From NCBI GenBank assembly GCA_025829515.1, contig GCA_025829515.1_4865.1: a DNA stretch of 64,000 bases; one strand, 5' to 3'. Source of the stretch: a phage. The notes beneath the pieces were generated by a model. The model did no database searches and was not told the DNA's origin. It worked only from the letters and a program-made list of their open reading frames with translations. Below, piece by piece: positions 4,767 through 24,312 of the stretch (its first letter is position 1; each line of letters begins with the position of its first letter). Both the position numbers and the translations under genes were made by a program.

Positions 4767-4810
4767 GGCCCGCCTCCTTGCCCACGGGTGAGGAGGTCCC
4801 TTTTTATTTA
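4767..4810 (+). terminator. intrinsic terminator
   Basis: cctcc...ggagg hairpin followed by tcccttttta ttt. Confidence 0.6.
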
Positions 4811-5480: not shown

Positions 5481-5510
5481 TTTTCAGATAGATGTTATTT
5501 TACTGAACCT
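5481..5510 (+). promoter_or_regulatory. conserved intergenic motif copy 1 (TTTCAGATAGATGTTAT-n3-ACTGAACCT)
   Basis: near-identical copies at 13885-13914 and 17652-17682, each just upstream of a gene. Confidence 0.5.
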
Positions 5511-5534
5511 AACTGTAAAGAAAGGAAAAAGTAG

Positions 5535-5840
5535 ATGGCTAAACAATACACAATTGTTAAACGCGCAGGTACGACTCTGCTGTACGTGGAGAAAGGTTGT
5601 GAGAACACTGCAACCGCCAAGAAACTGAACCTGCAAGGGTTTCTGTATCAAGGTCTCCGCGCGGGTTTGACCATCACTTTCAAAGGCTTACCACAGGCGA
5701 AGAATCTGCGCGTCGTGCGTGCAGACGGTGTAGAGCGTGCCTTGGTAGCCGACACCCCGGTTGATACTATCCCTGCCACTAAGAAGGCAGCGAAAGCAAC
5801 CAAGAAAGTCGTCGATAAACGCAAACGCGCTGTCGCTTAA
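5535..5840 (+). CDS. small basic protein with Lys/Ala-rich C-terminal tail; possible nucleic-acid-binding protein
   Basis: 101 aa; aaagaaaggaaaaag SD; C-terminus ATKKAAKATKKVVDKRKRAVA; flanked by the conserved motif and a strong terminator. Confidence 0.6.
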   Translation: MAKQYTIVKRAGTTLLYVEKGCENTATAKKLNLQGFLYQGLRAGLTITFKGLPQAKNLRVVRADGVERALVADTPVDTIPATKKAAKATKKVVDKRKRAVA

Positions 5841-5842
5841 GT

Positions 5843-5888
5843 AGTCCCCTACCTAACTTCGGTTAGGTAGGGCTCTTTTTATTTTTAA
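5843..5888 (+). terminator. intrinsic terminator
   Basis: cccctacctaac-ttcg-gttaggtaggg perfect hairpin followed by ctctttttattttt. Confidence 0.85.
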
Positions 5889-5906
5889 CCCTCTGGGGGA
5901 TATACC

Positions 5907-6359
5907 ATGTTTCAATGTTCAGTCGTCAATGATGCGGAATTGGCCGTGTACAAGCAGCGCACAATCCGGGCGCTGGATGCTGAAAAACCAGTCGATGTTA
6001 AAACGCGTGCAATCATTAGGGCATTTAGCGAATGGCCGAATATCGCAACCGTTTGGGCATTCACGGGAGAAGTTCGCAAAGACGGAGACAAGCTTCGTAC
6101 ACGTAGACACCACAGCTTAACATTTGTGGCAACCGAGGCGGGTCTTAAAGACATTAATCATTTATTAGAAGGATGGCAGCCGCACGAATACGGGAAACGT
6201 TTTCAGTTAAACTTTACTTGGCTGCGTCAAGAAGGCAACGCGAATCTCTGTTATCCAAGCTGGACGTTTAGACTCAACTATCGACCTGACCCAGATGTGA
6301 TGGAAAGAGTGATGGAGCACTGGCTCGCACTCGCAATTTTTACAGAACACAACCATTAA
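5907..6359 (+). CDS. hypothetical protein
   Basis: 150-aa ORF with ggggga SD. Confidence 0.5.
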   Translation: MFQCSVVNDAELAVYKQRTIRALDAEKPVDVKTRAIIRAFSEWPNIATVWAFTGEVRKDGDKLRTRRHHSLTFVATEAGLKDINHLLEGWQPHEYGKRFQLNFTWLRQEGNANLCYPSWTFRLNYRPDPDVMERVMEHWLALAIFTEHNH

Positions 6360-6387
6360 ATGAAGACACCCTTAAGGAGAATTAAAG

Positions 6388-6858
6388 ATGCCAGTTTTAT
6401 ACGGTGGTGTGGATCTGAAAGTTTTGGATCGGTTTAAACTACGGGCATCCGAAGCGCTCGTAAACGGTTGGGTCGAGCGTGGGGTACGGGATGCGTGTGA
6501 AGTTATTTGCCGTTACCCCGGCGCGACGACAATGTGGTCATGTCATGGACACGGACCATATTCTAAAAAGAACTCGCCAGGGGAGTTCCATGTAGTGTTT
6601 GTTCTTGGTGTTGGCTTTGAGCACAAAGCGCATGAGCTAGTTGCTGAGTTAATGAAAGCGGATATTCCACCGTTGTGGGATTTATCCATGGCGAGACTCA
6701 TGTACCCTGATGATGATTTCGTTTATGACCTCAGCGAAATCACCCTGAAAAACACGTATAACGCGTGGAAGATAACGTATCGTTATCTGCACACCGAACA
6801 ATCCCTTCGTGAAATTCGTAAAGTATTCCACACAGTTTGCAAAAAGGTTTTTAACTAA
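6388..6858 (+). CDS. hypothetical protein
   Basis: 156-aa ORF with taaggaga SD. Confidence 0.55.
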   Translation: MPVLYGGVDLKVLDRFKLRASEALVNGWVERGVRDACEVICRYPGATTMWSCHGHGPYSKKNSPGEFHVVFVLGVGFEHKAHELVAELMKADIPPLWDLSMARLMYPDDDFVYDLSEITLKNTYNAWKITYRYLHTEQSLREIRKVFHTVCKKVFN

Positions 6859-7556
6859 TGGCTAAGCAAAAGAAACCCCGTAACAAAAAGTATAACCCGA
6901 AAGTTGCCACAGAACGTACGGCACACACCGTCGCTGAAAACGCTCTGAATCGTATCACGTTTATCGGCAGTTCGATTCGTCGCCTCGGGCCGTACGCGGG
7001 CCGTGGTTTTCACTTTACGGCAAGTCCTCGTATTCGTGCTATCGCCACAGATATGTTAGTCGGTGGGCTGTTCGACCAACCGCGACCATGGCATCTTTGG
7101 GTGATGCACCTCACTGAACTCGACACCGGTGAAATTGTAACAGAAACCGCAGTTGCCACACTCGACGATTATACTTTGGCGGACTTCTGTGAACACGCTG
7201 AGAAGTTAGTTAAATCGTTACGCCCTGAACAGGAAGAGGGGAAGTATTTCGGTTATGCATTTGTGGCCGCCCCGAACGAGCGGTACGACTTCAAAGCGGA
7301 AGAAGACCAACTCATTGAAAACTTCATGCATTCTGGACTACTTGATACGTCGTTACATCTGTCGGAAGAGCAACAGTTCGTTAGTCGTGCAGAAATGGCC
7401 AACCTGCTCGTTGGTTATACTCGGAAGTTTGACGTGACCGTTGAACATGTCAAAGAAGTACCAGAGATTGTGAGCAAGAAAGACGAGGTGGTGCTTCCGG
7501 TTGACGAGGTTGTCAGTAAAGTAGCGACTGCGATAGGGGCAACGGGGGATTACTGA
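6858..7556 (+). CDS. hypothetical protein
   Basis: 232-aa ORF; start overlaps the upstream stop (coupled). Confidence 0.5.
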   Translation: MAKQKKPRNKKYNPKVATERTAHTVAENALNRITFIGSSIRRLGPYAGRGFHFTASPRIRAIATDMLVGGLFDQPRPWHLWVMHLTELDTGEIVTETAVATLDDYTLADFCEHAEKLVKSLRPEQEEGKYFGYAFVAAPNERYDFKAEEDQLIENFMHSGLLDTSLHLSEEQQFVSRAEMANLLVGYTRKFDVTVEHVKEVPEIVSKKDEVVLPVDEVVSKVATAIGATGDY

Positions 7557-7765
7557 TGAATCTACGTTGGCCGATCGTGGCTGCTGTGTTGTTTTGTATT
7601 TATATCGCCATCAGCACCAGTACCCGCACTGCAGAACGTCGCGAGACCGCAACCAGTACGTTCAGAATGTGCATTGACCGCATAGACCCGAACAGCACCA
7701 CTTATCCTGACGCGGTGAATGCGTGCCGTAAAGCAGTTGCTGAGATATTGAAAGAGGAAAATTAA
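7556..7765 (+). CDS. small putative membrane protein
   Basis: 69 aa; hydrophobic N-terminal segment WPIVAAVLFCIYIAIST; start overlaps upstream stop. Confidence 0.4.
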   Translation: MNLRWPIVAAVLFCIYIAISTSTRTAERRETATSTFRMCIDRIDPNSTTYPDAVNACRKAVAEILKEEN

Positions 7766-7992
7766 TGGAAAACCTCACACCGATTGAGATAGTGTCGCCA
7801 TTCGACCGTTACGTATATGGACAAACGCAAGCAAAGAAAATGCTGGCGATTGCGCTACGTAATCGATATCGTGCCAACAAACTCAACGTAGTGGACCGTA
7901 TGTCGGTCCACAAACAGAACCTTTTAATAGAAGGTCCAACAGGCACGGGTAAAATGGCGCTGATGCGTGAAGAAAAACAGAAACAAAAGTGA
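7765..7992 (+). CDS. HslU (ClpY)-like AAA+ ATPase N-terminal fragment, 75 aa
   Basis: TPIEIVSPFDRYVYGQTQAKKMLAIALRNRYRANKL...NLLIEGPTGTGK is collinear with the E. coli HslU N-terminus through Walker A; own aagagga SD; ends in a Lys-rich tail. Confidence 0.7.
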   Translation: MENLTPIEIVSPFDRYVYGQTQAKKMLAIALRNRYRANKLNVVDRMSVHKQNLLIEGPTGTGKMALMREEKQKQK

Positions 7993-8000
7993 GGTAAAGG

Positions 8001-9008
8001 ATGGCGAAGCTCGTTTCGTTTTCAGCAGGGTTGGATTCCACCTGGATAATGTATCAGCTGCTATGCAAAGCACCGGCCAATGAAGCACGACATGTCCGTC
8101 CTGCGTATTTCTCCATGTGGAATGGAGGTAACGCGAACTTCATGGAAATTCTTTGTAGCGTGGCCATTGTTGAACGGTTGATGGATAGACACCATGCACA
8201 AACCGATCATGTTACATGGGCGGTGCTCGGGGAAGAGAACTTCCCGCCTGTCGTTAGCGCTGGATATGCTAACGGCTGGTCGCCTCTGGTTCAGCAGGGC
8301 AATGTTGTTAACGGTCTCGCTAAACTGATGTGTGGTATTACGCGCAAACAGCACCACGCCTATGCAGTTGTTGGTTGGAATAAGCTAGATGCGTTGGAGA
8401 ATAGTCTAGAGCTGGGAGATTGGACATTAGACGAGTACGCTCGCTTAAAGAACCTCTATAGCGAATTGATGTATTTCCAAGATCATGCCGGTCGCGTTCC
8501 ACCGCTTCTAACACCTGCGTGGGATAAAGAGAAACTGGAAATGTGGCAGGAGTTGCCGGAAGATATTCGTAGGTTGGTACAGGTCAGTAACTACAACAAC
8601 TACGAATTCGCGATAGACCGTGAGAATAACGTGCTCATCGTTTATGCCAATCCGTCAGCAAAGTCGCAGAATTATCGTAGTCTTGGTATTACACCGTCAG
8701 TGGGATGGGAGATTAAAATCAACGATGCTTACAGACGGGTATGGTGTTCTGCTCTTGGTAGTGCTATTTCTGCTATGGGTTTGGACGTGCCGGCTTTTGC
8801 TAACTTTAAGGACACGGAAAGAAACCACACGACCTTTACGGTAAGTGAAGATACTGACCGGTTATGTATCACATCGTTTACCGCGGAAGAGTGGTGCGAG
8901 TATGCGCCACATTTTAAAGCGCTTCAGGAGAAAGAAAAAGAGATAGCGAAAAATGCCAAAGCAAGTAAAGCTGTGGACGCTCCAACTGGCGAAGTGGCGG
9001 ATAGCTGA
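8001..9008 (+). CDS. PP-loop-like (adenine nucleotide alpha-hydrolase superfamily) protein, function unknown
   Basis: N-terminal VSFSAGLDST resembles the SGGxDS PP-loop ATP-pyrophosphatase motif; gaggtaaagg SD. Confidence 0.45.
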   Translation: MAKLVSFSAGLDSTWIMYQLLCKAPANEARHVRPAYFSMWNGGNANFMEILCSVAIVERLMDRHHAQTDHVTWAVLGEENFPPVVSAGYANGWSPLVQQGNVVNGLAKLMCGITRKQHHAYAVVGWNKLDALENSLELGDWTLDEYARLKNLYSELMYFQDHAGRVPPLLTPAWDKEKLEMWQELPEDIRRLVQVSNYNNYEFAIDRENNVLIVYANPSAKSQNYRSLGITPSVGWEIKINDAYRRVWCSALGSAISAMGLDVPAFANFKDTERNHTTFTVSEDTDRLCITSFTAEEWCEYAPHFKALQEKEKEIAKNAKASKAVDAPTGEVADS

Positions 9009-9336
9009 AAAACGGAATTTGCCAAAGCTGGATATAACGGTTAAGTCGGGGCTGAAATATTTGGCACCCGACTGGGACTTTCTGATGGACTACAAGAAGT
9101 CTGACAAAGGCCCCGACGCAGAAGCTGCGTATACCAAACGCTACCTGCAGAAACTTAGTCGGTTGTTTGATGAAGACACTGATAAGTTGATAGAGATTCT
9201 CCGCCAGGGCGAGGTCGTACTAATGTGCTATTGCCCACCGGGGAAATTCTGTCATCGCCACTTGCTAGTTTCTTACCTTATTGAAATCGGTGAGTGGTTC
9301 GGTTATGAAGTAATTTACATGGGCGAATTATCGTAA
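8953..9336 (+). CDS. hypothetical protein with CYC...CHR motif (DUF488-like?)
   Basis: 127-aa ORF; motif LMCYCPPGKFCHRHLL; family assignment is from memory and uncertain. Confidence 0.4.
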   Translation: MPKQVKLWTLQLAKWRIAEKRNLPKLDITVKSGLKYLAPDWDFLMDYKKSDKGPDAEAAYTKRYLQKLSRLFDEDTDKLIEILRQGEVVLMCYCPPGKFCHRHLLVSYLIEIGEWFGYEVIYMGELS

Positions 9337-9347
9337 GGAGAGTCCTC

Positions 9348-9743
9348 GTGAAATTGATTATGCCTAAAACAGTTCCTAATCAGGATATGGTTACGACTAC
9401 ACTGTTTTCTGAATCATTACGTAACTCTGTACGTCAGACCGCTTCACGTCTAGACGTAGCAGTTGAAGAACTCGACCCAGAAATCTTCATGAAGTATGCG
9501 TTTATTGCAGAAGGTTACGCGATCGCCCTGAGTTATGCGCGGTATGTCGATGACGTGACAGAAGCTAAACGTTATTTAGAAGGCTGTTGTCAAGTTTTCC
9601 GTGAAGAAATCACCGAGATGGAGATGGTTGACCGCGGCTTACCTGAATTTGTAAAGGTGGGTTACGATAAGCTGTTGCAATCCATCGCGGATGAAATCGG
9701 ACGTCGCGGGTTAACTGTAGTGCACAGCGCTACACTGCACTAA
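9348..9743 (+). CDS. hypothetical protein
   Basis: GTG start with taaggagag SD. Confidence 0.5.
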   Translation: MKLIMPKTVPNQDMVTTTLFSESLRNSVRQTASRLDVAVEELDPEIFMKYAFIAEGYAIALSYARYVDDVTEAKRYLEGCCQVFREEITEMEMVDRGLPEFVKVGYDKLLQSIADEIGRRGLTVVHSATLH

Positions 9744-9755
9744 CACCGTACGAGT

Positions 9756-9800
9756 AGGCTACCACACGATCATATGTGTGGTAGCTTATTTTTTTTGTTT
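9756..9800 (+). terminator. intrinsic terminator
   Basis: gctaccacac...gtgtggtagc hairpin followed by ttattttttttg. Confidence 0.75.
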
Positions 9801-9812
9801 CTGGAGGCGTTA

Positions 9813-10346
9813 ATGGCAGACCGCTATCAGCCCGACCTAACACTCTCGTCGAAAGCGCTTGTCGTGGCGTTGATTAATCACGATAACGGCTTGTCATTAT
9901 CGCCTGACGAGATTGTGATAAGCGGGGTAGGGCCTATCGACTTAGGTGTTGAAAGTGCCCGTACCACGCAAGCGTACATTGCAAAAGCACGTAAACCTAA
10001 CGGTAAGAAGATTACCGTCTATTACGACCGTCTAGCTGCTAATAAGATTATCGACCCGCAAGGACCGATACTGGTTACTGTAGCTCCCGGCGACACCTAT
10101 GCTGATTTAGCGACAGTTGTAAACCAGTTGTGCGGTTTAAACTTGTCACGTGAGGACATCTCGACAGGGGTTATTACACCAACAAACGAGCCGTTGATTG
10201 CACCGATGAGTGACGATTCGCCGGCTTGGACGGCTACCTTTACATTCACGGCGTTTAATGAAAAAGAAGCTGTGGCAAGTCTGGATGAAGAAACTGTTTT
10301 ATGCATCGGTGATGATGCAGTGTTAACCTACGGAGACGATGCATAA
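9813..10346 (+). CDS. distant member of the paralogous anchor-domain family (see 19063-39074)
   Basis: start moved to ATG at 9813 (ggagg SD, downstream of terminator); shares the ITVYYDRL and LCGLNLSREDI motifs with the array genes. Confidence 0.5.
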   Translation: MADRYQPDLTLSSKALVVALINHDNGLSLSPDEIVISGVGPIDLGVESARTTQAYIAKARKPNGKKITVYYDRLAANKIIDPQGPILVTVAPGDTYADLATVVNQLCGLNLSREDISTGVITPTNEPLIAPMSDDSPAWTATFTFTAFNEKEAVASLDEETVLCIGDDAVLTYGDDA

Positions 10347-10819
10347 TGGCAACTGTAGTCAAAAAGAAACGTTTGCATGAACTCGATTCTTACAACGGTG
10401 ATAAGTCGAGCGCAGTAGCGCTTATCAGCGTTGATGAAAAGGAGTACAAACTTCCTCTCAGTGAAATCGGCGGTGGTGGGGCAGATGCAAACCCTATCCA
10501 AAACTTATCCGGTGCTGACGGTGTCGTTGAAATAGATCCCAATATTGCGGACGACTTCATTATCCGTTTAGGTGACCCCACCACTGCGCTTTCTATCACA
10601 CCTATTACCGACCCGGTTCCGGGTACGCGATATGAGTTATTACTGACGCTACGTCAGGGTACCGGTGCAAACAAAATCACCTGGCCGGCTTCGGTTAAAT
10701 GGCCTAACGGTGCAGAACCTCCGTTATCGTACACGCTGGACGCCGAGGATGTGTTGTCTTTGTCATCTACGGATGGCGGCACAACCTGGAAAGGGGCCAT
10801 TTGCGGAACAGGATACTAA
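10346..10819 (+). CDS. hypothetical protein
   Basis: 157-aa ORF; start overlaps upstream stop (ATAATG). Confidence 0.5.
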   Translation: MATVVKKKRLHELDSYNGDKSSAVALISVDEKEYKLPLSEIGGGGADANPIQNLSGADGVVEIDPNIADDFIIRLGDPTTALSITPITDPVPGTRYELLLTLRQGTGANKITWPASVKWPNGAEPPLSYTLDAEDVLSLSSTDGGTTWKGAICGTGY

Positions 10820-10822
10820 GCC

Positions 10823-13800
10823 ATGCGCAAATTTAAAATCTCTGCTAAACGACATGCGCTGAACTACGCACTGTCGCTGGCTTACGGACATCAGGACTTT
10901 GTTCGTCGAAACACCGGCTTAACTAACGACGCCCACAATGACCATTATCTGATTAACCCAGAAGGGGTGCTATCTAATAACCGGCATTTCATTGCTGACT
11001 CCATGGCAGTGTATCAACCTAATGGTGACGCCACCACAGAAGGTCAATCGTTGCTGATTATTGGCTACTGTCACATGTACATTGCTACCAAAAACCAGAT
11101 GTGGTTAGATGCGGCGATTCGTGCATGGGAAGCGTACGCTACCTACTATTACGCAGGTCAGGCCATTCCCGATTCACCACAACGTTGGATTTGTAACTGG
11201 CTAGTTAACGGTAAAGAGCCAGTGCTGGCAGACTATCCGGTGCATCCGACCGAGCCAACCCACGGTGGTTATAAGTGTGTACCGGTAACGTTTACGAACG
11301 GGCGTTGCCAGATACCCCAAGGCGCACCATTCTTTGGTGAATATCTGAACAATTTCTTTTCTGCGCATCGTGGCCATCCTACTTGGGGTGCGGTTAATGC
11401 CGACGTACAGAAAATTAAGGAATCGGAAGACGGGTTAATTGACTGGTCTAAAGTCCCTGATTACTTAATCGTCAATCCAGAGAAACCTTACGATGTAAAA
11501 GCGTGGGTGGACTGGAACACGATGCTAAACGACCCAACCGGATATACACCAATGTGGGGCGGTTCTACCTCGAAAGGTCCGCGGTACGAACCTGACTGGT
11601 TTGTTGTGTGGACGGGTGAGAAGGTTCAAGACGGCGATGTCATCGAATCCGGTTTACCTGATGCCCAGAAAGGAACCGTACAATTAAAGGACACTAGTAT
11701 TAACGGTGTATATTTGATTAACTACGCTTCCCAGGTACCTGTAGAGCACGGCGGATATTTGTTTGACCGCAATGAGCCGTGGCACAACCGTCCGGTTCAT
11801 ACCCCGTTAAAAGGGTCTGTTAACCAGATGGGTAACGCGGCAGATGCGGAAGTGTGGTTTATTGATGCCTGTTATCTGCTCTGGCGTATCACGGGTGAAC
11901 CGCGCTATAAAGCCGCATTAGACTCTGTGTTCTATACAGCGCACGAGTACACGTATATCGATGCGAAGGACAAGTTTTTCCGTCGTTCTAAGCTAGCCGA
12001 AACGCCATTTACAGATGGTATCTCGTACGACTATAAATACCCCAGCACTGTTGAGGTCGCTTACAGTCGTGATGAAAATGGTGATATTGTGTTCCGTTCT
12101 GAGGAAGCTGTGCAGAACTTTATGGAACAGCAAGCCGTGCGTTTCAGGATAAACAGTCAATCGAAGTTACGTGTGACATATGGCGGTGTTTGCGACAACG
12201 GTGATGCACTGGCGTGTAAAGTGATGGTGGATATTAACCCCGTCAAAGCGGATACTGAAGAAGTAAACTGGTACGGCTGTACGCTTCCGGGATCAACATC
12301 GATGGAAGTAGAACAGCATGACATCGATTTAGGGCATCTGGCCAGAATGACCAATCCGGCCAACGGCGAAGATTACATCATTGCCGATGCGCGAGCATGT
12401 TCGGACTACGGTGGGTGTACGTGGCAGGAGAAGTTTGAGAACAACATTTACGATGGTCGTTCAGGCACAATCGTAGAAGCGTTATTCCCGAACGACGATG
12501 CGGGTTTCATTATCGGTTTCTGGTTAACCGATGCCGGCGTTGCACCCCCGCAGTCAATTGTCTATCGTGCCGATGCTGATTTCAACTTCCGTTTCGAAGA
12601 TACCGACAAGTGGCGTTGGTGGTGGATGTTGCCCGCGACTAACGGGGAATGGAAACAGGTTATTATTCGCCCTGAAGACGCAACACTCTCGGGCTATCAA
12701 CCTGACCACGATACTGATGTCGAAACAAAACCGGCTGCGCCAAACTACACAACTATCGATCAGGTAACCATACTGCCCGATTCGGCTGTGGAGAATGCGC
12801 ACTTTAGCTGGTATTGCGTAAACGATGTTCCGCCACTGTTTAATGCAGATGATGGTTGGACGTTAACGTTCCGTATTGTAATTCGGGGAGGTTCTGCATT
12901 TACGGGTAAAGTGGGCGATTGTACGATAAAAGATTACCGTCTTGACTCGCTCGCGTATTGTCCAGGTACGATACCGTTCTCGAACATTTATTCGGAAGGA
13001 ACGTATCAGCTAGGTGCATGGCACGGGATGCCGTATCCCGGCTATCAGTATCCGTTTATGTACACCATACACACCGATGATCGCTACAAAGACTGGCTCT
13101 TAAATCAGATTCGGTTTATGCACGATTCACAAACCAACTACCAAACGCAGATAGGTGAGTTAGGTCCAGGTTGTGCGGCGTATATTTGGAACCGTTGGGA
13201 TAACTACTCTTACGGCCCGGCAGATACGTGGACAACGTTCCATTGGGGCGATGGACATCCGTGGGCAGGTTATCAGCCGCGCGCGTATAACGCCGCTGCG
13301 CGTTGTTGGTACGAATTAGTTGTGCGTGGTAAAGAGGTTCCACCTGAGCTAGTAGTGTACGTTGAAAATTGGGCTAAGTGGCTCGTAGGGTTCTTAGACC
13401 GCTTTGACAACCACACCCCGAATGAATTCCCTACGGCACCAAATAAACCGGTATGGGTAGAGAATGATTTCACAGCACATATGTGTGCGCTCTGGATAGC
13501 AGGCAGTGCTTACGCAGCAATGGCCGGCTGTACAGTGGAAGGGTTGAGCCGTATTATGGATATGGGGATGAAGGAGATGGGTGATAACTTCACCGTCACC
13601 GACATTCCAGGAAAAGCCATTAACGGTGCCTGGTCTCCGTGGGCAAATCCTACCACGGATAACGGTCAGGCTTTTGGGTTTTATACTGGAGAAGCGATGC
13701 GCGCCATCGGATTGTATCTCCTCTATAAAGAACACGGCCCAGGGCATGATATTTATCGTGACTTGGCAATCCCCGACCACACAACAGCCTCGCTCGATAT

Positions 13801-13840
13801 AACGTTTACTATCCCAGACGATCCGCTCGAAACTAATTAA
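10823..13840 (+). CDS. large hypothetical protein (1005 aa), Trp/Tyr-rich; possibly structural or a carbohydrate-active enzyme
   Basis: long uninterrupted ORF followed by a terminator; no motif I can name. Confidence 0.6.
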   Translation: MRKFKISAKRHALNYALSLAYGHQDFVRRNTGLTNDAHNDHYLINPEGVLSNNRHFIADSMAVYQPNGDATTEGQSLLIIGYCHMYIATKNQMWLDAAIRAWEAYATYYYAGQAIPDSPQRWICNWLVNGKEPVLADYPVHPTEPTHGGYKCVPVTFTNGRCQIPQGAPFFGEYLNNFFSAHRGHPTWGAVNADVQKIKESEDGLIDWSKVPDYLIVNPEKPYDVKAWVDWNTMLNDPTGYTPMWGGSTSKGPRYEPDWFVVWTGEKVQDGDVIESGLPDAQKGTVQLKDTSINGVYLINYASQVPVEHGGYLFDRNEPWHNRPVHTPLKGSVNQMGNAADAEVWFIDACYLLWRITGEPRYKAALDSVFYTAHEYTYIDAKDKFFRRSKLAETPFTDGISYDYKYPSTVEVAYSRDENGDIVFRSEEAVQNFMEQQAVRFRINSQSKLRVTYGGVCDNGDALACKVMVDINPVKADTEEVNWYGCTLPGSTSMEVEQHDIDLGHLARMTNPANGEDYIIADARACSDYGGCTWQEKFENNIYDGRSGTIVEALFPNDDAGFIIGFWLTDAGVAPPQSIVYRADADFNFRFEDTDKWRWWWMLPATNGEWKQVIIRPEDATLSGYQPDHDTDVETKPAAPNYTTIDQVTILPDSAVENAHFSWYCVNDVPPLFNADDGWTLTFRIVIRGGSAFTGKVGDCTIKDYRLDSLAYCPGTIPFSNIYSEGTYQLGAWHGMPYPGYQYPFMYTIHTDDRYKDWLLNQIRFMHDSQTNYQTQIGELGPGCAAYIWNRWDNYSYGPADTWTTFHWGDGHPWAGYQPRAYNAAARCWYELVVRGKEVPPELVVYVENWAKWLVGFLDRFDNHTPNEFPTAPNKPVWVENDFTAHMCALWIAGSAYAAMAGCTVEGLSRIMDMGMKEMGDNFTVTDIPGKAINGAWSPWANPTTDNGQAFGFYTGEAMRAIGLYLLYKEHGPGHDIYRDLAIPDHTTASLDITFTIPDDPLETN

Positions 13841-13841
13841 G

Positions 13842-13885
13842 TGTATACCAGCTATCCTTCGGGGTGGCTGGTACGCTTTATTTTA
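13842..13885 (+). terminator. intrinsic terminator
   Basis: imperfect accagc...gctggt hairpin followed by gctttattttattt. Confidence 0.55.
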
Positions 13886-13914
13886 TTTCAGATAGATGTT
13901 ATCTCAGTGAACCT
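13885..13914 (+). promoter_or_regulatory. conserved intergenic motif copy 2 (TTTCAGATAGATGTTAT-n3-AGTGAACCT)
   Basis: 17/17 identity to copy 1 in the core; lies between a terminator and the next gene. Confidence 0.5.
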
Positions 13915-13967
13915 CTGAAATTTACGTTTCAATCAGAGCTTATGTCATGTATTAAGGAGCACTTAAA

Positions 13968-14300
13968 ATGTCTAAAGTCTATCACATTGCGGTATTGCGT
14001 CAGGCAACTGACCTTGAAAGCGACGGTGAACTTCGAATGCAGGAAGCCATTCTGAGCACTGTTAAAGAACTTAACCAAGCAAACAATTTCGATGCACGCT
14101 TCGAAGCGCTGCCTGTAAGCCGTGGTGCTTTCTACGGCAGTCAAATACTGGCAACCCAGTATGCGATGGCGTTAAGTGAATTGCGTAATAACCCTAGCCC
14201 AGAGACCGCAGCGAAGATGAACAAGCTGTCGTTATGGATGAATAACCTGGATGTCCCCGCAGCATCCACTGTAAGTGGTTTGGGGGTGGTTAATGGGTAG
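13968..14300 (+). CDS. hypothetical protein
   Basis: 110 aa; ttaaggagc SD. Confidence 0.55.
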   Translation: MSKVYHIAVLRQATDLESDGELRMQEAILSTVKELNQANNFDARFEALPVSRGAFYGSQILATQYAMALSELRNNPSPETAAKMNKLSLWMNNLDVPAASTVSGLGVVNG

Positions 14301-14628
14301 AGTAATCGGTGTTGCCAGACCAATGCGTCTCAATAGGACACCGATGATAAAACGTGATATCGGTGAAGCTGTAAAACAGTTGTCGAATATCGACGGTTAC
14401 ACCTTTAAAGTGATAACACTGTACGACTACCCAGAAGGTAAAGTTCCGCAAGAGGCGCTGGATATATTCGTTAATGTATTAGACGATTGCCTTAAGAGTC
14501 CAACGGACGTAAATCTTATCAAACTAAACACCATGTCCCTTGAACTGTACCGGCTGCGTAAAATGGGCATTCATGCTCGCATCGGTAAAGGTGACCAAAC
14601 GTTAGCCGAATACTGGGCTAAACAGTAA
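14293..14628 (+). CDS. hypothetical protein
   Basis: start moved to ATG at 14293 (ggggg SD). Confidence 0.45.
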   Translation: MGRVIGVARPMRLNRTPMIKRDIGEAVKQLSNIDGYTFKVITLYDYPEGKVPQEALDIFVNVLDDCLKSPTDVNLIKLNTMSLELYRLRKMGIHARIGKGDQTLAEYWAKQ

Positions 14629-14655
14629 GCTATTTTAAATCCTAAGGAGCATTAA

Positions 14656-15174
14656 GTGAATATTATCATGAACCTGTATACCAAACGGGAACGTAACGTT
14701 TTAGAATCGGGCGTTGCCCCGGAAGTATTGGCTGCGGGGGATATTAGTATCGACCCATTGAAAGTGAAAGTCGCGGAACTGTTCCCTCGTGATGAATGGG
14801 ACATCTGGTATTTCCGTTGTTCGTCGGTATTAAATGCAATCAAGCAACTGTCTGATTATCAGCCTGGTCCGTATATCGGTACTTGGCACTGGTACGTTCC
14901 ACGCACACCAAACTTCCTTTACCTGCACGACGATGATAAACGTACTCATATTCGCACTGTAGCGACGCCTGCGCGTTTGGAGCGTTATCTGGAGCTAATC
15001 CACGACCGGCCTCGTAACGAGCTGCAGAGCATCGTAGAGGTGCTCAGACAGGTACCTTTAGACGGTATACTGGAACTGGACATGAAAATCGCCGATCGTC
15101 CGAGACATTACTGGGAATTTTCCTGGGTAGACGCGAAGTACGAAAACCATAACGTTATCTATCTGAAACGTTAA
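14656..15174 (+). CDS. hypothetical protein
   Basis: GTG start with taaggagc SD; 172 aa. Confidence 0.5.
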   Translation: MNIIMNLYTKRERNVLESGVAPEVLAAGDISIDPLKVKVAELFPRDEWDIWYFRCSSVLNAIKQLSDYQPGPYIGTWHWYVPRTPNFLYLHDDDKRTHIRTVATPARLERYLELIHDRPRNELQSIVEVLRQVPLDGILELDMKIADRPRHYWEFSWVDAKYENHNVIYLKR

Positions 15175-15184
15175 GGGGGACAGG

Positions 15185-15505
15185 ATGTTGAACTGGTTAC
15201 TTGCGCTGATTAACAAGCGACAAAAACAACTGTACGAAGAAAACCGAGAATTAGCTGCCGCTAACCGTCGTGTACAGGCCGATAACTTGCAGTTAAGACA
15301 CGACCTCGCGAAACTGGACGTTAATGCGAGTAGGCTCTGCACGCACATAAGTCGCTGTCACGACATTATCGAACGTATTGGGCACTACCATCTTACGTCC
15401 CCTGCGCGTCGTGCCTATGACGCGGCCGTTCAGGGATTAAAAGATACCAGGAGTGCGTACGACGAGATGTTAGAAGAATTTAGTAAACGTGAGGATAAAA
15501 ACTAA
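15185..15505 (+). CDS. hypothetical coiled-coil protein
   Basis: 106 aa; aaggggga SD; heptad-like N-terminus. Confidence 0.5.
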   Translation: MLNWLLALINKRQKQLYEENRELAAANRRVQADNLQLRHDLAKLDVNASRLCTHISRCHDIIERIGHYHLTSPARRAYDAAVQGLKDTRSAYDEMLEEFSKREDKN

Positions 15506-15888
15506 TGGAAATGCCAATGAACACCGACTTAGCACTGGCAATCGAACACATGAAAAACCATCAGCTGACGTTACTGAATGCAAGCACAGACGGACAACGT
15601 CAAGGGTATGCACTCGTTGCAAAAGCAGCGTTAGAACTTAACAAAATCCTGCTCGCTAAACTCTACAGCCTGGAGAACAGCGTGCTTCACGCAACGCATC
15701 TGGGTGAGGCCAGCGAGCTGGTTACAGACGTGCGCCTATATGCATCGCGCGAAATGGAGCGCTTAGTCAACGAGTGGAACCTTCAGTGTAACAGTGAGCG
15801 TGCTGATAACGATCCACGTAAAGTTGCACTGACGCCAGGCGTGTATATCAAGGACGGTAGCATCAACGAATATACCGGATTTAACTGA
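15505..15888 (+). CDS. hypothetical protein
   Basis: 127 aa; start overlaps upstream stop. Confidence 0.5.
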   Translation: MEMPMNTDLALAIEHMKNHQLTLLNASTDGQRQGYALVAKAALELNKILLAKLYSLENSVLHATHLGEASELVTDVRLYASREMERLVNEWNLQCNSERADNDPRKVALTPGVYIKDGSINEYTGFN

Positions 15889-15911
15889 TCGGTAGATAAG
15901 GGTGATTGTGA

Positions 15912-16337
15912 ATGGTAACCATAGACGTAGCTATCTCTATCGAGCTTCAACGCATCGGTGTAGGTACACTAAAACTTCGTTATCGCGATTTACCGCATTA
16001 CAACAAGATGTTTGATGTTGGGGTGATAAAGTTTTATAACCGGTACGGGCCAAGAGAACTATGTCTATGGTTTGTTGAGTTAGCGATAACCTACGGCGAG
16101 TTCTATCATCCTAACATACCACATGTCAGACATGTGTCAAGAGGGCACCTGGAAACTTCCAGAGAGTTCTGTCAGCGATTGTATAGCGCGATGGAGGAGT
16201 CCGCACCCATCGACTATGACGTGCCACCTGAACTGTTATTAATCGACCACGAAGGAGAAGCTGGTGTCTATTTCATTACGGGGACTGACTATTCACGAGA
16301 TTCAGAAATATTTACTCGAGGGCGGGAAACTGACTGA
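15912..16337 (+). CDS. hypothetical protein
   Basis: 141 aa; aagggtga SD. Confidence 0.45.
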   Translation: MVTIDVAISIELQRIGVGTLKLRYRDLPHYNKMFDVGVIKFYNRYGPRELCLWFVELAITYGEFYHPNIPHVRHVSRGHLETSREFCQRLYSAMEESAPIDYDVPPELLLIDHEGEAGVYFITGTDYSRDSEIFTRGRETD

Positions 16338-16569
16338 CGACTATCAAACCGCAGATATGTTGCTACAGTCATTTGTACCGTTACGTGCTGAGTATTACGA
16401 AATCGCGTTCCTGGGCGATGAATATTGTGTCCGTACACAAGGTCGCGAGTACGAAGCAGTTCGCGTACCACGAACACTCGGCGGGGTGATGATACTTATC
16501 GCTAATATCGAAGCACTCAATGCGAAATGTGCGTTATACATCGCACATGGAGGTCGCAATGGATTTTAA
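16264..16569 (+). CDS. hypothetical protein
   Basis: GTG start with gaaggagaa SD; overlaps the upstream gene in another frame. Confidence 0.4.
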   Translation: MSISLRGLTIHEIQKYLLEGGKLTDDYQTADMLLQSFVPLRAEYYEIAFLGDEYCVRTQGREYEAVRVPRTLGGVMILIANIEALNAKCALYIAHGGRNGF

Positions 16570-16634
16570 GTGGGAACCGTTAACGTTAGCAGAAATTCGT
16601 AACAGAATCGATAGAGCTATTGCAAGGAGAAAAC

Positions 16635-17036
16635 ATGTTCGGCCTGTTTCAGGAGAAAAAACAGTTGCGTCGCCAATTAGAAATACTGGAATTGGAACTC
16701 AGCCTATCAAAGACTGAGTTGGAAATTTCGAAAGAAGCGTGGAAAAGAAATCTTGATGAATCTTTCGAAGAACGCCGTAAGCTTACACGACTACTTTCTG
16801 AGGAACAGTCTAAGAACCGGAAACTCGAAGATGAGCTACGGGATGCCCGACGAGATGCGGATCTGCGTGACAAGATGTTAGGACGGAACCTGGGTGCCCT
16901 AATCTATTTCATAGAGCAACGTTGGGAACCAAAAACACTCCTTGAGTTGCTCTATGAAAAACTCTCCTGTGTAGGTAAACGTTCTGCGGCCATCGAGTAT
17001 TTCCGTAGTCACGGTTTCGAGGTAAAAGATGAGTAA
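16635..17036 (+). CDS. hypothetical coiled-coil protein
   Basis: start moved to ATG at 16635 (caaggaga SD); charged heptad repeats. Confidence 0.5.
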   Translation: MFGLFQEKKQLRRQLEILELELSLSKTELEISKEAWKRNLDESFEERRKLTRLLSEEQSKNRKLEDELRDARRDADLRDKMLGRNLGALIYFIEQRWEPKTLLELLYEKLSCVGKRSAAIEYFRSHGFEVKDE

Positions 17037-17113
17037 ATTAGAGGTTGGCAGGCTGTTCGTTAATCCTTAAAAGCAACAGTTTCAAATTAGTTACGACCAT
17101 AAGGAGTATTAAA

Positions 17114-17554
17114 ATGTTAAAGCCACGCAAACAGAAAAGATTACAGTTTGTCAAAATAGTACATCCGGAGTCCCGTCGTGTTACAGGTGGACGTCTCTAC
17201 GTGGGTAAACACCGTAGTCGTCTTATCAGCTGGTCGGCAATGGCCAACGTAGCCACCCAACTCCAGGCAATGGTTGAAGACCGTTGTCAGTTAAAAGGTG
17301 ATTTCTTTCAAGAGAAGAAACCCTATCGTGATATCTTCCGTACACTAAAAGCGTGCTGGGTACTCAGCTGGGTGCCTGGCCGCGAACAACTTTATTTTCT
17401 GCGTAAGTTCCCACGCCCTATGCCGAAGGAAAACATTAGCGTTTTCTTAGACAAACTAAAACGCTTTAATGACATCGGCATTAACGCTAATAAAGAGCAA
17501 GTTTCTGCTACAGTAGCAGCCCGGAAACTCTTACGCGATTACGTGGCCGATTGA
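17114..17554 (+). CDS. hypothetical protein
   Basis: start moved to ATG at 17114 (taaggagt SD); followed by a strong terminator. Confidence 0.5.
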   Translation: MLKPRKQKRLQFVKIVHPESRRVTGGRLYVGKHRSRLISWSAMANVATQLQAMVEDRCQLKGDFFQEKKPYRDIFRTLKACWVLSWVPGREQLYFLRKFPRPMPKENISVFLDKLKRFNDIGINANKEQVSATVAARKLLRDYVAD

Positions 17555-17591
17555 CTTGAGAGGCACTTATCCCAAAAGAGGTCAATAAAGC

Positions 17592-17633
17592 AGCACCCTA
17601 CTCCTTCGGGAGTAGGGTTTCTTCTTTTTTTGT
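17592..17633 (+). terminator. intrinsic terminator
   Basis: caccctactcc-ttcg-ggagtagggtt hairpin followed by tcttcttttttt. Confidence 0.85.
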
Positions 17634-17651
17634 CTAGTCCGATTACAATTA

Positions 17652-17682
17652 TTTTCAGATATATATTACTTAGGTGAGAGTT
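17652..17682 (+). promoter_or_regulatory. conserved intergenic motif copy 3 (TTTTCAGATATATATTAC-n3-GGTGAGAG, diverged)
   Basis: same architecture as copies 1 and 2; downstream of a terminator, 48 nt upstream of the next start. Confidence 0.4.
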
Positions 17683-17729
17683 AACCATTAACTCTTATCT
17701 AATCGACCATTATCTTAAGGAGTTTTAAC

Positions 17730-18176
17730 ATGTACATTCTGAATAACGAACTTACTAAGTACGCTAGCAAAAACCCGATTATGATTTCTTTCCTAATCGT
17801 GATGGCGGCCAACAAACAAGACCCTAGCGAATTCACTACTGAGGACTTCGAAGAGATTATCGCTAACGCCAAAGAAGCCACGTTCCAGACCACAGAGCCT
17901 ACTCGCGACGAGTTCCCCCTAGGTGAAGCCGGCGATGTAATGTTTAACGACATGGTTGCTTCGTACTACATCAATAGACGTGGTATGGAAATCGAATACG
18001 ATGAACTTCCTACTAGCAGCTTTGCTGAAATGATTCGTGATTATCGTCGTCAAGTTGTCTCTGACGATATCGTAAAGAAATACATGGCACAAATCAGCCC
18101 ATTCAGTCTTGAATTCGAAAACCGCGCGGTTGCCTTAGCAACACATCGCCTGCGTTTAGAAAAAGAAGTACACTAA
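17730..18176 (+). CDS. hypothetical protein
   Basis: 148 aa; taaggagt SD. Confidence 0.55.
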   Translation: MYILNNELTKYASKNPIMISFLIVMAANKQDPSEFTTEDFEEIIANAKEATFQTTEPTRDEFPLGEAGDVMFNDMVASYYINRRGMEIEYDELPTSSFAEMIRDYRRQVVSDDIVKKYMAQISPFSLEFENRAVALATHRLRLEKEVH

Positions 18177-18237
18177 TAATAACCCGGCGGGCAAAGTCCC
18201 GCCAATCAACCTGCAATCTACAAAAAAGGAATATCCC

Positions 18238-18456
18238 ATGCGCAACCTCTTCTCCAAATCTGAAATCAAACCTGTTGTTGAAACCACCGCCAAACGTAAG
18301 CCTGACATGATTGACCTGCTGCTGAAAATGTCTGCAGCAGAAGCCAAAGCTTTCATGAAAACAATGAAAGACGGCGATAAAATGATTGACAATGTTGAAG
18401 TAACCTACGGTGTTAAAGACCGCCCAAAGAATAACGGCCTCGTGTGGGTCTGTTAA
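18238..18456 (+). CDS. hypothetical small protein
   Basis: 72 aa; aaaaagga SD. Confidence 0.5.
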   Translation: MRNLFSKSEIKPVVETTAKRKPDMIDLLLKMSAAEAKAFMKTMKDGDKMIDNVEVTYGVKDRPKNNGLVWVC

Positions 18457-18477
18457 TCGACGATTGAGGATAAAGTC

Positions 18478-18909
18478 GTGAACGTAATCAAAAAGCTGAA
18501 CGGCGATACTTTCCATGCTCTGATGCCGAAGGGTGCACGTATTCGGATAAACAACAAAAACAAACCCTATAAGACGGACTACACGTTCGACACCACTGAC
18601 CACGCATTCGGTATCTGCGACGAAGGGACGAACGATGTCAAATGGATTATCGTGGTATACGAAACGTCTAGTGGGTATAAGTTCTGGGATGCCTATGAAC
18701 TGCAGAAGGGCTATTGGTGGTATGTCAGTTGGGAAGCTTTCAATGACAAGGTATCTTATTCGTGGAACGACTTCCCGCACTTTTGCTGGGATAGTTGGTT
18801 TCATGATTGCGGGGATAAGATTTCTGATCTTGTCCAGGAACTCTACAAACACTACAAAGAACACAATGGAAACTTCGTCTATCCTGAATGGGAACTGCCG
18901 AAGTCGTGA
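18478..18909 (+). CDS. hypothetical protein
   Basis: GTG start with gagga SD; 143 aa; followed by terminator. Confidence 0.55.
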   Translation: MNVIKKLNGDTFHALMPKGARIRINNKNKPYKTDYTFDTTDHAFGICDEGTNDVKWIIVVYETSSGYKFWDAYELQKGYWWYVSWEAFNDKVSYSWNDFPHFCWDSWFHDCGDKISDLVQELYKHYKEHNGNFVYPEWELPKS

Positions 18910-18962
18910 AGAAAAGGGAGCTTCGGCTCCCCTTCTTTTTTGTTTCCTTTTCTTTTTTTGTT
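18910..18962 (+). terminator. intrinsic terminator
   Basis: gggagc-ttcg-gctccc hairpin followed by a long T-rich tract. Confidence 0.8.
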
Positions 18963-19062
18963 TGCTCTTGTTCGGATTCTGGTACGCACTACGCTTTTAA
19001 TATGCTGGCAGGGGGTCTAAAAATCTTACGACCTCAATAATCCCTTAACTCGAGTTAACGCG

Positions 19063-24309: not shown

Positions 24310-24312
24310 TTG

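What the first reader, a model, noticed from the sequence alone, without database searches (positions are those of the whole stretch)
5481..17682. Conserved 30-bp intergenic motif present three times, each between a terminator and the next gene
Seen in sequence: TTTCAGATAGATGTTAT-TTT-ACTGAACCT at 5481-5510, TTTCAGATAGATGTTAT-CTC-AGTGAACCT at 13885-13914, and a diverged TTTTCAGATATATATTAC-TTA-GGTGAGAG at 17652-17682. Each lies 25-55 nt upstream of a start codon. It does not match sigma-70 spacing or the T4 late promoter TATAAATA. Inference: a phage-specific promoter or transcription-factor site.
Basis: seen in the sequence. Interest (0 to 1): 0.5.

Follow-up and report, generated by a model that had tools for sequence, protein, structure and literature searches.

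The report
Jumbo-phage early promoter motif
The three repeats are real copies of the early-gene promoter that phiKZ-like giant phages are thought to use with the RNA polymerase they carry in the virion; this kind of signal is already known, so the finding is sound but ordinary.

Summary
The motif is at the stated coordinates (5482-5498, 13886-13902, 17653-17669, + strand) and is far beyond chance. The window comes from an SPN3US-like Salmonella jumbo phage (Seoulvirus, 96-98% identical). In the complete SPN3US genome the same motif occurs 24 times. All 24 copies point the same way as the next gene and 22 are intergenic. Copies sit in front of genes for the non-virion RNA polymerase, and none lies in the late structural block. 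All three window copies are kept at the orthologous intergenic positions in Salmonella phage SPAsTU and Erwinia phage Asesino, with an invariant core and diverged flanks. The sequence matches 23-24 of 26 positions of the published early-promoter consensus of phages N1M2/OBP. It contains the phiKZ core (TATATTAC-like) and has the layout of the AR9 early promoter (AT-rich box, 6 nt, G at +1). Best reading: early promoters recognised by the virion-packaged multisubunit RNA polymerase, with starts predicted at G5505, G13909 and G17676. They head three terminator-bounded early units. "Each after a terminator" holds for two of three copies. By-products: a covarying stem-loop starting exactly at +1 in about a third of such promoters, and a second 5'-UTR box, AATCGACyAT. 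Novelty is low.

The parts
5482..5505 (+). Early promoter copy 1 (positions -23 to +1): TTTCAGATAGATGTTAT, then 6 nt, then the predicted start G5505
   Evidence: The 18-nt core is invariant at the orthologous site in SPN3US, SPAsTU and Erwinia phage Asesino while the flanks diverge. The start site is inferred from the AR9 layout.
5535..5840 (+). Single gene of predicted early unit 1 (101 aa, Lys-rich C-terminus, unknown function)
   Evidence: ORF. PHROG of unknown function and no Pfam hit. Orthologs in SPAsTU and Asesino.
5847..5872 (+). Intrinsic terminator (11-bp stem, TTCG loop, T-run) that closes early unit 1
13846..13873 (+). Intrinsic terminator ending the upstream non-early block (after the 1005-aa tail-protein gene)
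   Evidence: The stems differ in SPAsTU and Asesino but the TTCG loop and the pairing are kept.
13886..13909 (+). Early promoter copy 2 (-23 to +1); predicted start G13909
   Evidence: Orthologous copies in SPAsTU (L007 block start 6277) and Asesino (L008 block start 9263).
13968..17554 (+). Predicted early unit 2: about nine small + strand genes, none with a functional or virion-structural annotation in SPN3US
   Evidence: ORFs; SPN3US annotation; first gene is in a PHROG of unknown function.
17595..17618 (+). Intrinsic terminator that closes unit 2, 35 nt before promoter copy 3
   Evidence: The stem is invariant in four genomes.
17653..17676 (+). Early promoter copy 3 (-23 to +1), TATATTAC-type core; predicted start G17676
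   Evidence: Conserved in SPAsTU (L007 block start 12264) and Asesino (L008 block start 14724).
17676..17696 (+). 9-bp stem-loop beginning at the predicted first transcribed base of unit 3
   Evidence: Compensatory A>G / T>C change in SPAsTU. Same feature in about a third of related promoters.
17701..17710 (+). 5'-UTR box AATCGACCAT, 29 nt before the start codon
   Evidence: conserved.
17730..18909 (+). Predicted early unit 3: three small genes (148, 72 and 143 aa)
   Evidence: ORFs; annotation.
18916..18931 (+). Terminator that closes unit 3, before the array of virion structural genes starting at 19063

Best explanation
The three repeats are early promoters of an SPN3US-like, phiKZ-related jumbo phage. 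By analogy with phiKZ and AR9, the multisubunit RNA polymerase that is packaged in the virion and injected with the DNA recognises them. The proposed recognition elements are an AT-rich block at about -17 to -7 (ATAGATRTTAY), a T-tract at -23 to -21, and a conserved GTG 6 nt downstream. Transcription is predicted to start at the second G of that GTG: G5505, G13909 and G17676, each +/-2 nt. The three promoters head three early transcription units bounded by intrinsic terminators: 5505-5872 (one gene), 13909-17618 (about nine small genes) and 17676-18931 (three genes). These units are interleaved on the same strand with motif-less, presumably middle or late, structural genes. Shown here: the motif, its genome-wide distribution, its conservation, its match to published consensus sequences, and its placement before non-virion polymerase genes. 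Inferred: which enzyme recognises it, the exact start sites, and the early timing.
For: (1) Identity of the phage. The window is 96-98% identical to Salmonella phage SPN3US and its relatives.
(2) Genome-wide distribution. SPN3US has 24 copies. All 24 are on the + strand and co-directional with the next gene. 22 of 24 are intergenic in a genome that is 93.6% coding. The predicted start lies 26-135 nt before the start codon in 22 of 24. None lies between 114 and 161.9 kb, the virion-structural block.
(3) Placement before non-virion polymerase genes. Copies sit just upstream of the SPN3US genes at 29014 (phiKZ gp71 in PDB 7OGP, E=2e-29), at 15768-19299 (second gene = phiKZ gp55, E=5e-39) and at 23886 (phiKZ gp68, the sigma-like subunit, BLASTP 2e-13). 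According to the literature these genes must be transcribed by the injected enzyme.
(4) Match to published motifs. The window copies match 23, 24 and 23 of 26 positions of the N1M2 predicted early promoter TTTCARRYAKATATTATYWAAGTGWA. That consensus is tabulated next to the OBP, 201phi2-1 and phiKZ (TATATTAC) motifs. The AR9 early consensus AAATATATATTAT-(6N)-G(+1), mapped by dRNA-seq, has the same layout.
(5) Transfer to phiKZ. The SPN3US-derived matrix, scanned over 50 kb of phiKZ, gives its top hits upstream of PHIKZ058.1, PHIKZ054 and PHIKZ068. PHIKZ054 is reported to carry the early motif with a primary start site.
(6) Conservation. All three window sites, plus a fourth paralogous site before the HTH gene, are present at orthologous intergenic positions in SPAsTU (about 65% identity in the copy-2 region) and in Erwinia phage Asesino, a different genus. 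The core is invariant and the flanks have diverged.
(7) Spread. The degenerate motif recurs several times per contig in many 200-246 kb viral contigs.
(8) Independent support for the start site. In 115 non-redundant instances, stems of at least 6 bp begin exactly at the predicted +1 in 32%, against 1-3% at most other positions outside the motif.
Against: No 5'-end or time-course data for this phage group could be found or read, so timing, enzyme and start sites rest on analogy. The papers read for phiKZ and AR9 (2017 paper and 2020 review) say no virion polymerase had been purified, so direct recognition is unproven even in the reference phages. Copies 1 and 2 score lower than copy 3 (about 30 vs 44 bits). 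They carry G at -11 and lack the upstream A-tract of the consensus, so they may be weaker or timed differently. Copy 1 follows a stop codon by 9 nt with no terminator, so read-through transcripts also cross it. The core contains an imperfect dyad (AGATA-N5-TATCT), so a dimeric DNA-binding protein is not excluded.
Confidence: 0.85

Rival explanations
1. The motif is mainly an operator for a phage DNA-binding protein, for example the HTH protein encoded downstream of a paralogous copy in SPN3US. The protein would bind the dyad AGATA-N5-TATCT and switch the neighbouring genes, while the promoter proper lies elsewhere.
For: The reverse strand of several SPN3US copies also scores 13-31 bits, because the core is partly palindromic. 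Stems anchored at -19 occur in 14% of instances. An HTH gene (SPN3US 94310) lies directly downstream of one copy, both in SPN3US and in Asesino.
Against: The conserved flanks are strongly asymmetric: TTTC upstream and GTGA downstream. All 24 copies face the downstream gene. The dyad is only 5 bp and is degenerate in copies 1 and 3. The same motif is the experimentally mapped early-promoter consensus in phiKZ and AR9.
Confidence: 0.06
2. The motif is a promoter for the non-virion phage polymerase (middle or late class), not for the virion enzyme.
For: Timing has not been measured in this phage group. Copies 1 and 2 lie within a region that also holds annotated tail and virion genes.
Against: Copies precede the non-virion polymerase genes themselves. 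The published phiKZ middle motif (weak AT-rich element near -24, or TACT at -22) and late motif (TATG at +1) are different. The motif is absent from the structural block. Terminators at 5847-5872 and 17595-17618 separate the motif-headed units from the structural genes.
Confidence: 0.05
3. The motif is a strong host sigma-70 early promoter, as in T4. ATRTTAT would serve as the -10 hexamer.
For: If the start is the predicted G, TRTTAT occupies -12 to -7 and matches TATAAT at 5 of 6 positions in the A-variants (read directly from the sequence).
Against: There is no -35 hexamer at 16-18 nt and no TG at -15/-14. The sigma-70 scan finds nothing on the + strand at any copy. Copies 1 and 2 have G at -11, the base most critical for sigma-70, and that G is conserved in four genomes for copy 1. 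phiKZ development is rifampicin-resistant.
Confidence: 0.03
4. The repeats are recombination or mobile 'cassette' sequences (like the T4-type promoter-early-stem-loop elements), or leftovers of duplication, kept for no regulatory reason.
For: Copies of the TATATTAC subtype share about 80 nt of promoter, hairpin and UTR box. One third of copies sit next to a terminator stem-loop.
Against: The three indels that distinguish the window from SPN3US (window 7807-7961, 17037-17097, 35340-35470) do not border any motif copy. Orthologous copies are conserved across genera with diverged flanks, which is a footprint of selection on the core.
Confidence: 0.01

Closest known systems
phiKZ early promoters (AT-rich consensus containing TATATTAC; 28-32 sites mapped by primer extension and dRNA-seq; attributed to the virion RNA polymerase)
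   Same: Same core: copy 3 contains TATATTAC itself. Same T-rich element upstream of -19, same co-orientation with early operons, and same placement before the gp68 homolog. The SPN3US-derived matrix recovers sites before PHIKZ054, 058.1 and 068.
   Different: In this clade the block upstream of the core is CAGATAG/T rather than GAGATyT. Copies 1 and 2 have G at -11. No start sites have been mapped here.
Predicted early promoters of Pseudomonas phage OBP and Klebsiella phage N1M2 (TBYAWWWWWTTTCARRYAKATATTATYWAAGTGWA, 31 sites in N1M2)
   Same: 23-24 of 26 positions are identical in the window copies. The conserved GTG downstream and the A/T-rich tract upstream in the family consensus are also shared.
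   Different: These are different phage genera. Those motifs are also only bioinformatic predictions. Window copies 1 and 2 lack the upstream A/T tract.
Bacillus phage AR9 early promoters, AAATATATATTAT-(6N)-G(+1)
   Same: Same architecture: an AT-rich box ending in TTAT, 6 nt, then a G start. In AR9 this is validated by dRNA-seq and insensitive to chloramphenicol.
   Different: AR9 has uracil-containing DNA and is a distant relative outside the Chimalliviridae. It lacks the TTTCAG and GTGA flanks.
Bacterial sigma-70 -10 element (TATAAT at -12 to -7)
   Same: Position and AT-rich composition of TRTTAT, which suggests a comparable role in strand opening (inference).
   Different: No -35 or TG element, G at -11 in two copies, and no sigma homolog known for the virion enzyme.
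T4-type promoter-early stem-loop cassettes and the N4 virion-polymerase hairpin promoters (both recalled from background knowledge, not read here)
   Same: Phage early promoters associated with stem-loops.
   Different: Here the stem-loop is downstream of the start, in the RNA, or is an upstream terminator. Indel boundaries do not coincide with the motif. The N4 enzyme is a single-subunit polymerase that reads a DNA hairpin upstream of the start.

Membership tests
Early promoters of RNAP-encoding (phiKZ-like) jumbo phages | Highly conserved AT-rich element of about 10 nt, of the TATATTAC / ATATTAT type | tested here: met
   23-24 of 26 positions match the N1M2/OBP consensus (read). Copy 3 contains TATATTAC. 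The matrix transfers to phiKZ.
Early promoters of RNAP-encoding (phiKZ-like) jumbo phages | Many copies per genome, upstream of and co-oriented with operons of mostly unknown-function genes, and absent from late structural blocks | tested here: met
   24 copies in SPN3US; 24/24 co-oriented; 22/24 intergenic; none between 114 and 161.9 kb. No first downstream gene is annotated as virion, head or tail.
Early promoters of RNAP-encoding (phiKZ-like) jumbo phages | Precede the genes of the non-virion RNA polymerase | tested here: met
   SPN3US copies lie before homologs of phiKZ gp55, gp68 and gp71. These genes lie outside the 64-kb window.
Early promoters of RNAP-encoding (phiKZ-like) jumbo phages | The genome encodes both a virion and a non-virion set of beta/beta'-like subunits | tested here: met
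   Seven 'RNA polymerase beta subunit' genes are annotated in SPN3US. Two were checked against the phiKZ nvRNAP structure. For the window's own phage this is inferred from 96-98% identity.
Early promoters of RNAP-encoding (phiKZ-like) jumbo phages | The AT-rich element is centred near -10 of an experimentally mapped start site | not testable with these tools
   No transcript data are available. Indirect support: with the AR9 spacing the box spans -17 to -7, and covarying hairpins begin exactly at the predicted +1.
Early promoters of RNAP-encoding (phiKZ-like) jumbo phages | Transcription immediately after infection, independent of host RNAP and of new protein synthesis | not testable with these tools
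   Shown for phiKZ and AR9 only.
Sigma-70 promoters | -35 and -10 hexamers with a 16-18 nt spacer (or TGn extended -10), and A at -11 | tested here: not met
   No + strand hit at any copy. Copies 1 and 2 have G at -11.
phiKZ middle / late promoters | Weak AT-rich or TACT element near -22 to -24 (middle), or TATG overlapping +1 (late) | tested here: not met
   The motif has neither TATG at the predicted start nor that architecture (against the descriptions).
T4 late promoter | TATAAATA at -10 | tested here: not met
   Absent from all three copies.
Palindromic operator of a dimeric regulator | Two-fold symmetric site, with no orientation preference built into the site itself | tested here: inconclusive
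   There is a 5-bp imperfect dyad, AGATA-N5-TATCT, and reverse-strand scores reach 13-31 bits. But the flanks are asymmetric and the orientation is strict.
Known RNA families (Rfam) | Match to a covariance model | tested here: not met
   Only three chance-level hits (E 0.18-0.63), none at the motif copies.

The most novel reading that the evidence does not exclude
The promoter may be one half of a composite early-expression cassette. In about a third of copies across this phage group, including copy 3 here, the transcript begins with a covarying stem-loop placed exactly at +1. In a subset, a conserved box (AATCGACyAT) sits just before the ribosome-binding site. These RNA elements could form a post-transcriptional layer specific to early mRNAs. 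Possible roles are protection from 5'-end-dependent decay, or recognition by a phage factor for translation control or for handling of RNAs made inside the early infection vesicle. I found no description of this in the papers I could search.
Probability: 0.3. Interest if true: 0.5.

Novelty: already known. Interest (0 to 1): 0.2.

Why it matters
The motif marks the genes that an SPN3US-like phage switches on first, with the enzyme it brings along. In the window it assigns about 13 small genes of unknown function to the early, host-takeover class and separates them from neighbouring structural genes on the same strand. That helps annotation and the choice of candidates for anti-host or anti-defence functions. 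It also provides promoter parts that should be independent of host RNA polymerase. It does not change what is known about how these phages are transcribed. The only possibly new point is the stem-loop phased to +1, which both supports the start-site call and suggests selection on the 5' ends of early mRNAs.

Tried and rejected
1. Sigma-70 or T4-late reading: rejected (G at -11).
2. Known RNA family: none found.
3. Mobile-cassette or recombination idea: the three indels between the window and SPN3US do not border motif copies.
4. Function of the first downstream genes: only PHROGs of unknown function, and no Pfam hit.
5. Test of whether SPN3US 15768-17621, which is syntenic with the phiKZ nuclear-shell gene gp54, is its homolog: no PDB hit and BLASTP not significant. 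The claim was dropped. A PDB search with SPN3US 22738-23742 also found nothing.
6. Key primary papers could not be read: Lavysh 2016 on the AR9 genome, Ceyssens 2014, Cornelissen 2012, Weintraub 2019.
7. Supplementary tables with phiKZ start sites are not held.
8. Literature searches with motif strings or 'Erwinia jumbo promoter' gave nothing specific to this clade.
9. Overall folding energy of the first 36 nt of SPN3US early transcripts is no lower than that of random genomic 36-mers. Only shuffle z-scores and the positional analysis reveal the hairpin.
10. Window copies 1 and 2 have no convincing 5' hairpin.


Full report
OBSERVATION. TTTCAGATAGATGTTAT occurs exactly at 5482-5498 and 13886-13902, and TTTCAGATATATATTAC (3 mismatches) at 17653-17669. 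All are on the + strand and nothing else in the 64 kb matches. The chance expectation is 0.15 matches, and none of 100 shuffles reached three. The repeat finder returns the same three 29-nt copies as its first family. The start codons follow the motif by 25, 54 and 48 nt. The terminator scan finds strong + strand terminators just upstream of copy 2 (13846-13873) and copy 3 (17595-17618). It finds none upstream of copy 1, which begins 9 nt after the stop codon at 5470-5472. So "each between a terminator and the next gene" holds for two of three copies. No sigma-70-like site on the + strand coincides with any copy, and no Rfam family matches.

WHAT THE WINDOW IS. The region is 96-98% identical to Salmonella phage SPN3US and about 30 close relatives (genus Seoulvirus), and more distantly related to Erwinia jumbo phages. 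These are phiKZ-related jumbo phages that encode two multisubunit RNA polymerases. I fetched the whole SPN3US genome with its annotation. Window positions 1-64000 correspond to SPN3US 95.3-160.3 kb, with three small indels.

GENOME-WIDE PICTURE. A mismatch search and then an iterated weight matrix find 24 distinct copies in SPN3US. The minus-strand hits are only the mirror images of plus-strand copies, because the core AGATA-N5-TATCT is a weak dyad. The consensus is aAaa..TTTCAGATAGATATTATCTaaGTGAg. All 24 copies face the next gene. 22 of 24 are intergenic although 93.6% of the genome is coding. With the start placed as described below, the 5' UTRs are 26-135 nt in 22 of 24. A matrix built without the three orthologous copies still scores the window sites at 30.2, 30.7 and 43.7 bits, against 8.0 for the next best window position. 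Random genomes reach at most 16.9. By my count, none of the 22 first downstream genes is annotated as a virion, head or tail protein, whereas about 19% of all genes are. No copy lies in the 114-161.9 kb structural block.

LINK TO THE POLYMERASES. SPN3US copies lie 26 nt before the gene at 29014, which matches phiKZ gp71 of the non-virion polymerase structure 7OGP (E=2e-29). Two copies lie before the pair of genes at 15768-19299, whose second member matches phiKZ gp55 (E=5e-39). One copy lies before the gene at 23886, a homolog of phiKZ gp68, the sigma-like fifth subunit (BLASTP 2e-13). According to the literature, the non-virion polymerase genes of phiKZ and AR9 are early genes. Early transcription there is independent of host polymerase and of protein synthesis, and is therefore assigned to the injected virion enzyme.

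MATCH TO PUBLISHED MOTIFS. A review states that in every polymerase-encoding jumbo phage a conserved AT-rich motif of about 10 nt, centred near -10, can be found upstream of presumed early operons. It adds that wherever transcripts were profiled the motif proved to be the early-promoter consensus. Table 2 of Lewis et al. 2020 lists the motifs:
- N1M2: TBYAWWWWWTTTCARRYAKATATTATYWAAGTGWA (31 sites)
- OBP: BSHAWWWWWTTTYARRYAKATATTATYWWADTG
- 201phi2-1: ...TTTRARR_BTATATTACDWHDGTG
- phiKZ: TATATTAC
Read against the N1M2 consensus, the window copies match at 23, 24 and 23 of 26 positions. The AR9 early consensus, mapped by dRNA-seq, is AAATATATATTAT-(6N)-G(+1). The window copies have the same layout (…GTTAT/ATTAC, 6 nt, G), which places the predicted starts at G5505, G13909 and G17676 and the AT-rich box at -17 to -7. 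As a direct cross-check I scanned 50 kb of phiKZ with the SPN3US-derived core matrix. The best hits are AAAAAAATTTGAGATTTATATTACTAAATTG before PHIKZ054, a similar site before PHIKZ068, and one before PHIKZ058.1. PHIKZ054 is reported to carry the early motif with a primary start site. So the motif sits before orthologous genes (gp68 and its homolog) in the two phages.

CONSERVATION. In Salmonella phage SPAsTU (about 65% identity in the copy-2 region) and in Erwinia phage Asesino (genus Erskinevirus), all three window copies are found at the orthologous intergenic positions. Alignments show the core invariant and the flanks diverged. For copy 1, 18 consecutive invariant columns TTTCAGATAGATGTTATT lie within otherwise dissimilar Asesino sequence. 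For copy 2, TAGATAGAT.TTATCT..GTGAA is invariant. For copy 3, the terminator stem, the whole promoter and part of the UTR are invariant. The terminator before copy 2 has different stems in the three lineages but keeps pairing and its TTCG loop. A fourth paralogous site, before the HTH gene, is also conserved in Asesino. A degenerate form of the motif recurs several times per contig in many 200-246 kb IMG/VR contigs. Several of these contigs have the lengths I recall for Cronobacter phage CR5 and some Erwinia jumbo phages; that identification is from memory, not from a tool.

ARCHITECTURE IN THE WINDOW. Promoters and terminators together delimit three units.
- Unit 1 (5505-5872): one conserved 101-aa gene.
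- Unit 2 (13909-17618): about nine small genes.
- Unit 3 (17676-18931): three small genes.
None of these genes has a functional or structural annotation in SPN3US. The motif-less stretches between them hold the genes annotated as virion or tail proteins (5907-13840, and 19063 onward).

HOW IT MOST LIKELY WORKS. The virion polymerase would bind the T-tract and the AT-rich box and start at the G six nucleotides downstream. This is inferred from the analogy above. The box resembles a bacterial -10 hexamer in position and composition, which suggests a role in strand opening. But copies 1 and 2 carry G at -11, the base most critical for sigma-70, and for copy 1 that G is conserved in four genomes. 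There is also no -35 or TG element. Both points argue against use by the host enzyme. Copies 1 and 2 also lack the upstream A-tract and score lower, so they may be weaker promoters.

BY-PRODUCTS. First, many copies are followed at once by an inverted repeat. In SPN3US, 10 of 24 copies have shuffle z-scores below -1.5 for the first 36 nt (Wilcoxon p=0.006), although the absolute energies are unremarkable. In 115 non-redundant instances collected from related contigs, a stem of at least 6 bp starts exactly at the predicted +1 in 32%. The figure is 1-3% at most positions outside the motif region, with a separate 14% peak at -19 that reflects the core dyad. Counting anchors from -2 to +3, 42 of 115 instances have such a stem, against 2-9 at control offsets and 11 (maximum 17) in shuffles, and there are 33 different arm sequences. 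In the window only copy 3 has it (9 bp, 17676-17696), and it shows a compensatory change in SPAsTU. This supports the start-site call. Given the established effect of 5'-terminal stem-loops on mRNA stability in E. coli (background knowledge), it also suggests protection of early mRNAs.

Second, a box AATCGACyAT occurs 11 times on the + strand of SPN3US and never on the minus strand, where about 0.5 per strand would be expected by chance (my estimate). Most copies lie 23-31 nt before a start codon, some of them without any promoter copy nearby. In related loci, 13 of 18 occurrences are followed by a ribosome-binding site and a start codon. The window instances are at 17701 and 18455. The box therefore seems tied to translation starts.

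RIVALS. An operator for a dimeric regulator is not excluded as an additional function (weak dyad; an HTH gene lies downstream of one copy), but the asymmetry and strict orientation favour a promoter. A non-virion-polymerase promoter is unlikely because copies precede that enzyme's own genes and differ from the published phiKZ middle and late motifs. A host sigma-70 promoter and a recombination cassette are each contradicted by specific tests.

VERDICT. The thing is a known kind of element, with a consensus essentially identical to published ones for related phages. I could not read the 2016 paper that is said to give the motif for every such phage, and I found no transcript mapping for the SPN3US group. 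Interest is low. The +1-phased stem-loop and the UTR box are the only possibly new details.

Noticed in passing
window 17676-17696; SPN3US L002-L006; related loci L012-L131: A covarying stem-loop begins exactly at the predicted first transcribed base in about a third of these promoters: 32% at +1 against 1-3% at most positions outside the motif, with 33 distinct stem sequences. Window copy 3 has a 9-bp example with a compensatory change in SPAsTU. Copies 1 and 2 do not have one.
   Followed up: yes
window 17701-17710 and 18455-18464; SPN3US 65455, 94280, 112244, 114030, 167592, 223318, 224197 and others: A second conserved box, (C/T)TAATCGACyAT, lies 23-31 nt before start codons, just upstream of the ribosome-binding site. 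It occurs only on the coding strand (11 vs 0 in SPN3US). Some copies have no promoter copy nearby, so it seems tied to translation starts.
   Followed up: partly
window 5486-5504, 13890-13908; SPN3US copies generally: The promoter core carries an imperfect dyad, AGATA-N5-TATCT. One paralogous copy in SPN3US (94235), and its Asesino ortholog, sit directly before a gene annotated as an HTH DNA-binding protein. This raises the possibility of autoregulation or early shut-off at these sites.
   Followed up: partly
window 4772-4797, 5847-5872, 13846-13873, 17595-17618, 18916-18931: Four of these five + strand terminators have a TTCG tetraloop (4772-4797 has CACG). The stem before copy 2 differs between genera while the loop and pairing are kept. 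In SPN3US, 8 of 24 promoter copies have such a terminator within 75 nt upstream.
   Followed up: partly
window 5535-5840: A monocistronic unit (promoter, one gene, terminator) encodes a 101-aa protein with a Lys/Arg-rich C-terminal tail. It is conserved in SPAsTU and Erwinia phage Asesino, has no Pfam hit, and belongs to a PHROG of unknown function.
   Followed up: partly
window 7807-7961, 17037-17097, 35340-35470: Three indels relative to SPN3US. At the first, SPN3US has 833 nt (two annotated genes, one labelled head maturation protease) where the window has 154 nt. At the second, SPN3US has an extra 110-aa gene (113083-113415). At the third, the window has about 130 nt extra. None borders a promoter copy.
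   Followed up: no
window 19063-35000 (e.g. 28556-28789, 31887-32099): A long array of same-strand genes of about 265-300 aa, annotated as virion structural proteins in SPN3US. Segments cross-match at about 74% to neighbouring paralogs, which indicates a tandemly duplicated structural gene family.
   Followed up: no
SPN3US L002:15768-17621 (outside the window): This 617-aa gene sits where the phiKZ nuclear-shell gene gp54 sits: after a minus-strand head gene and before the gp55 homolog. It is also preceded by early-promoter copies. Yet it shows no significant similarity to gp54 by BLASTP or to any PDB chain by phmmer.
   Followed up: partly
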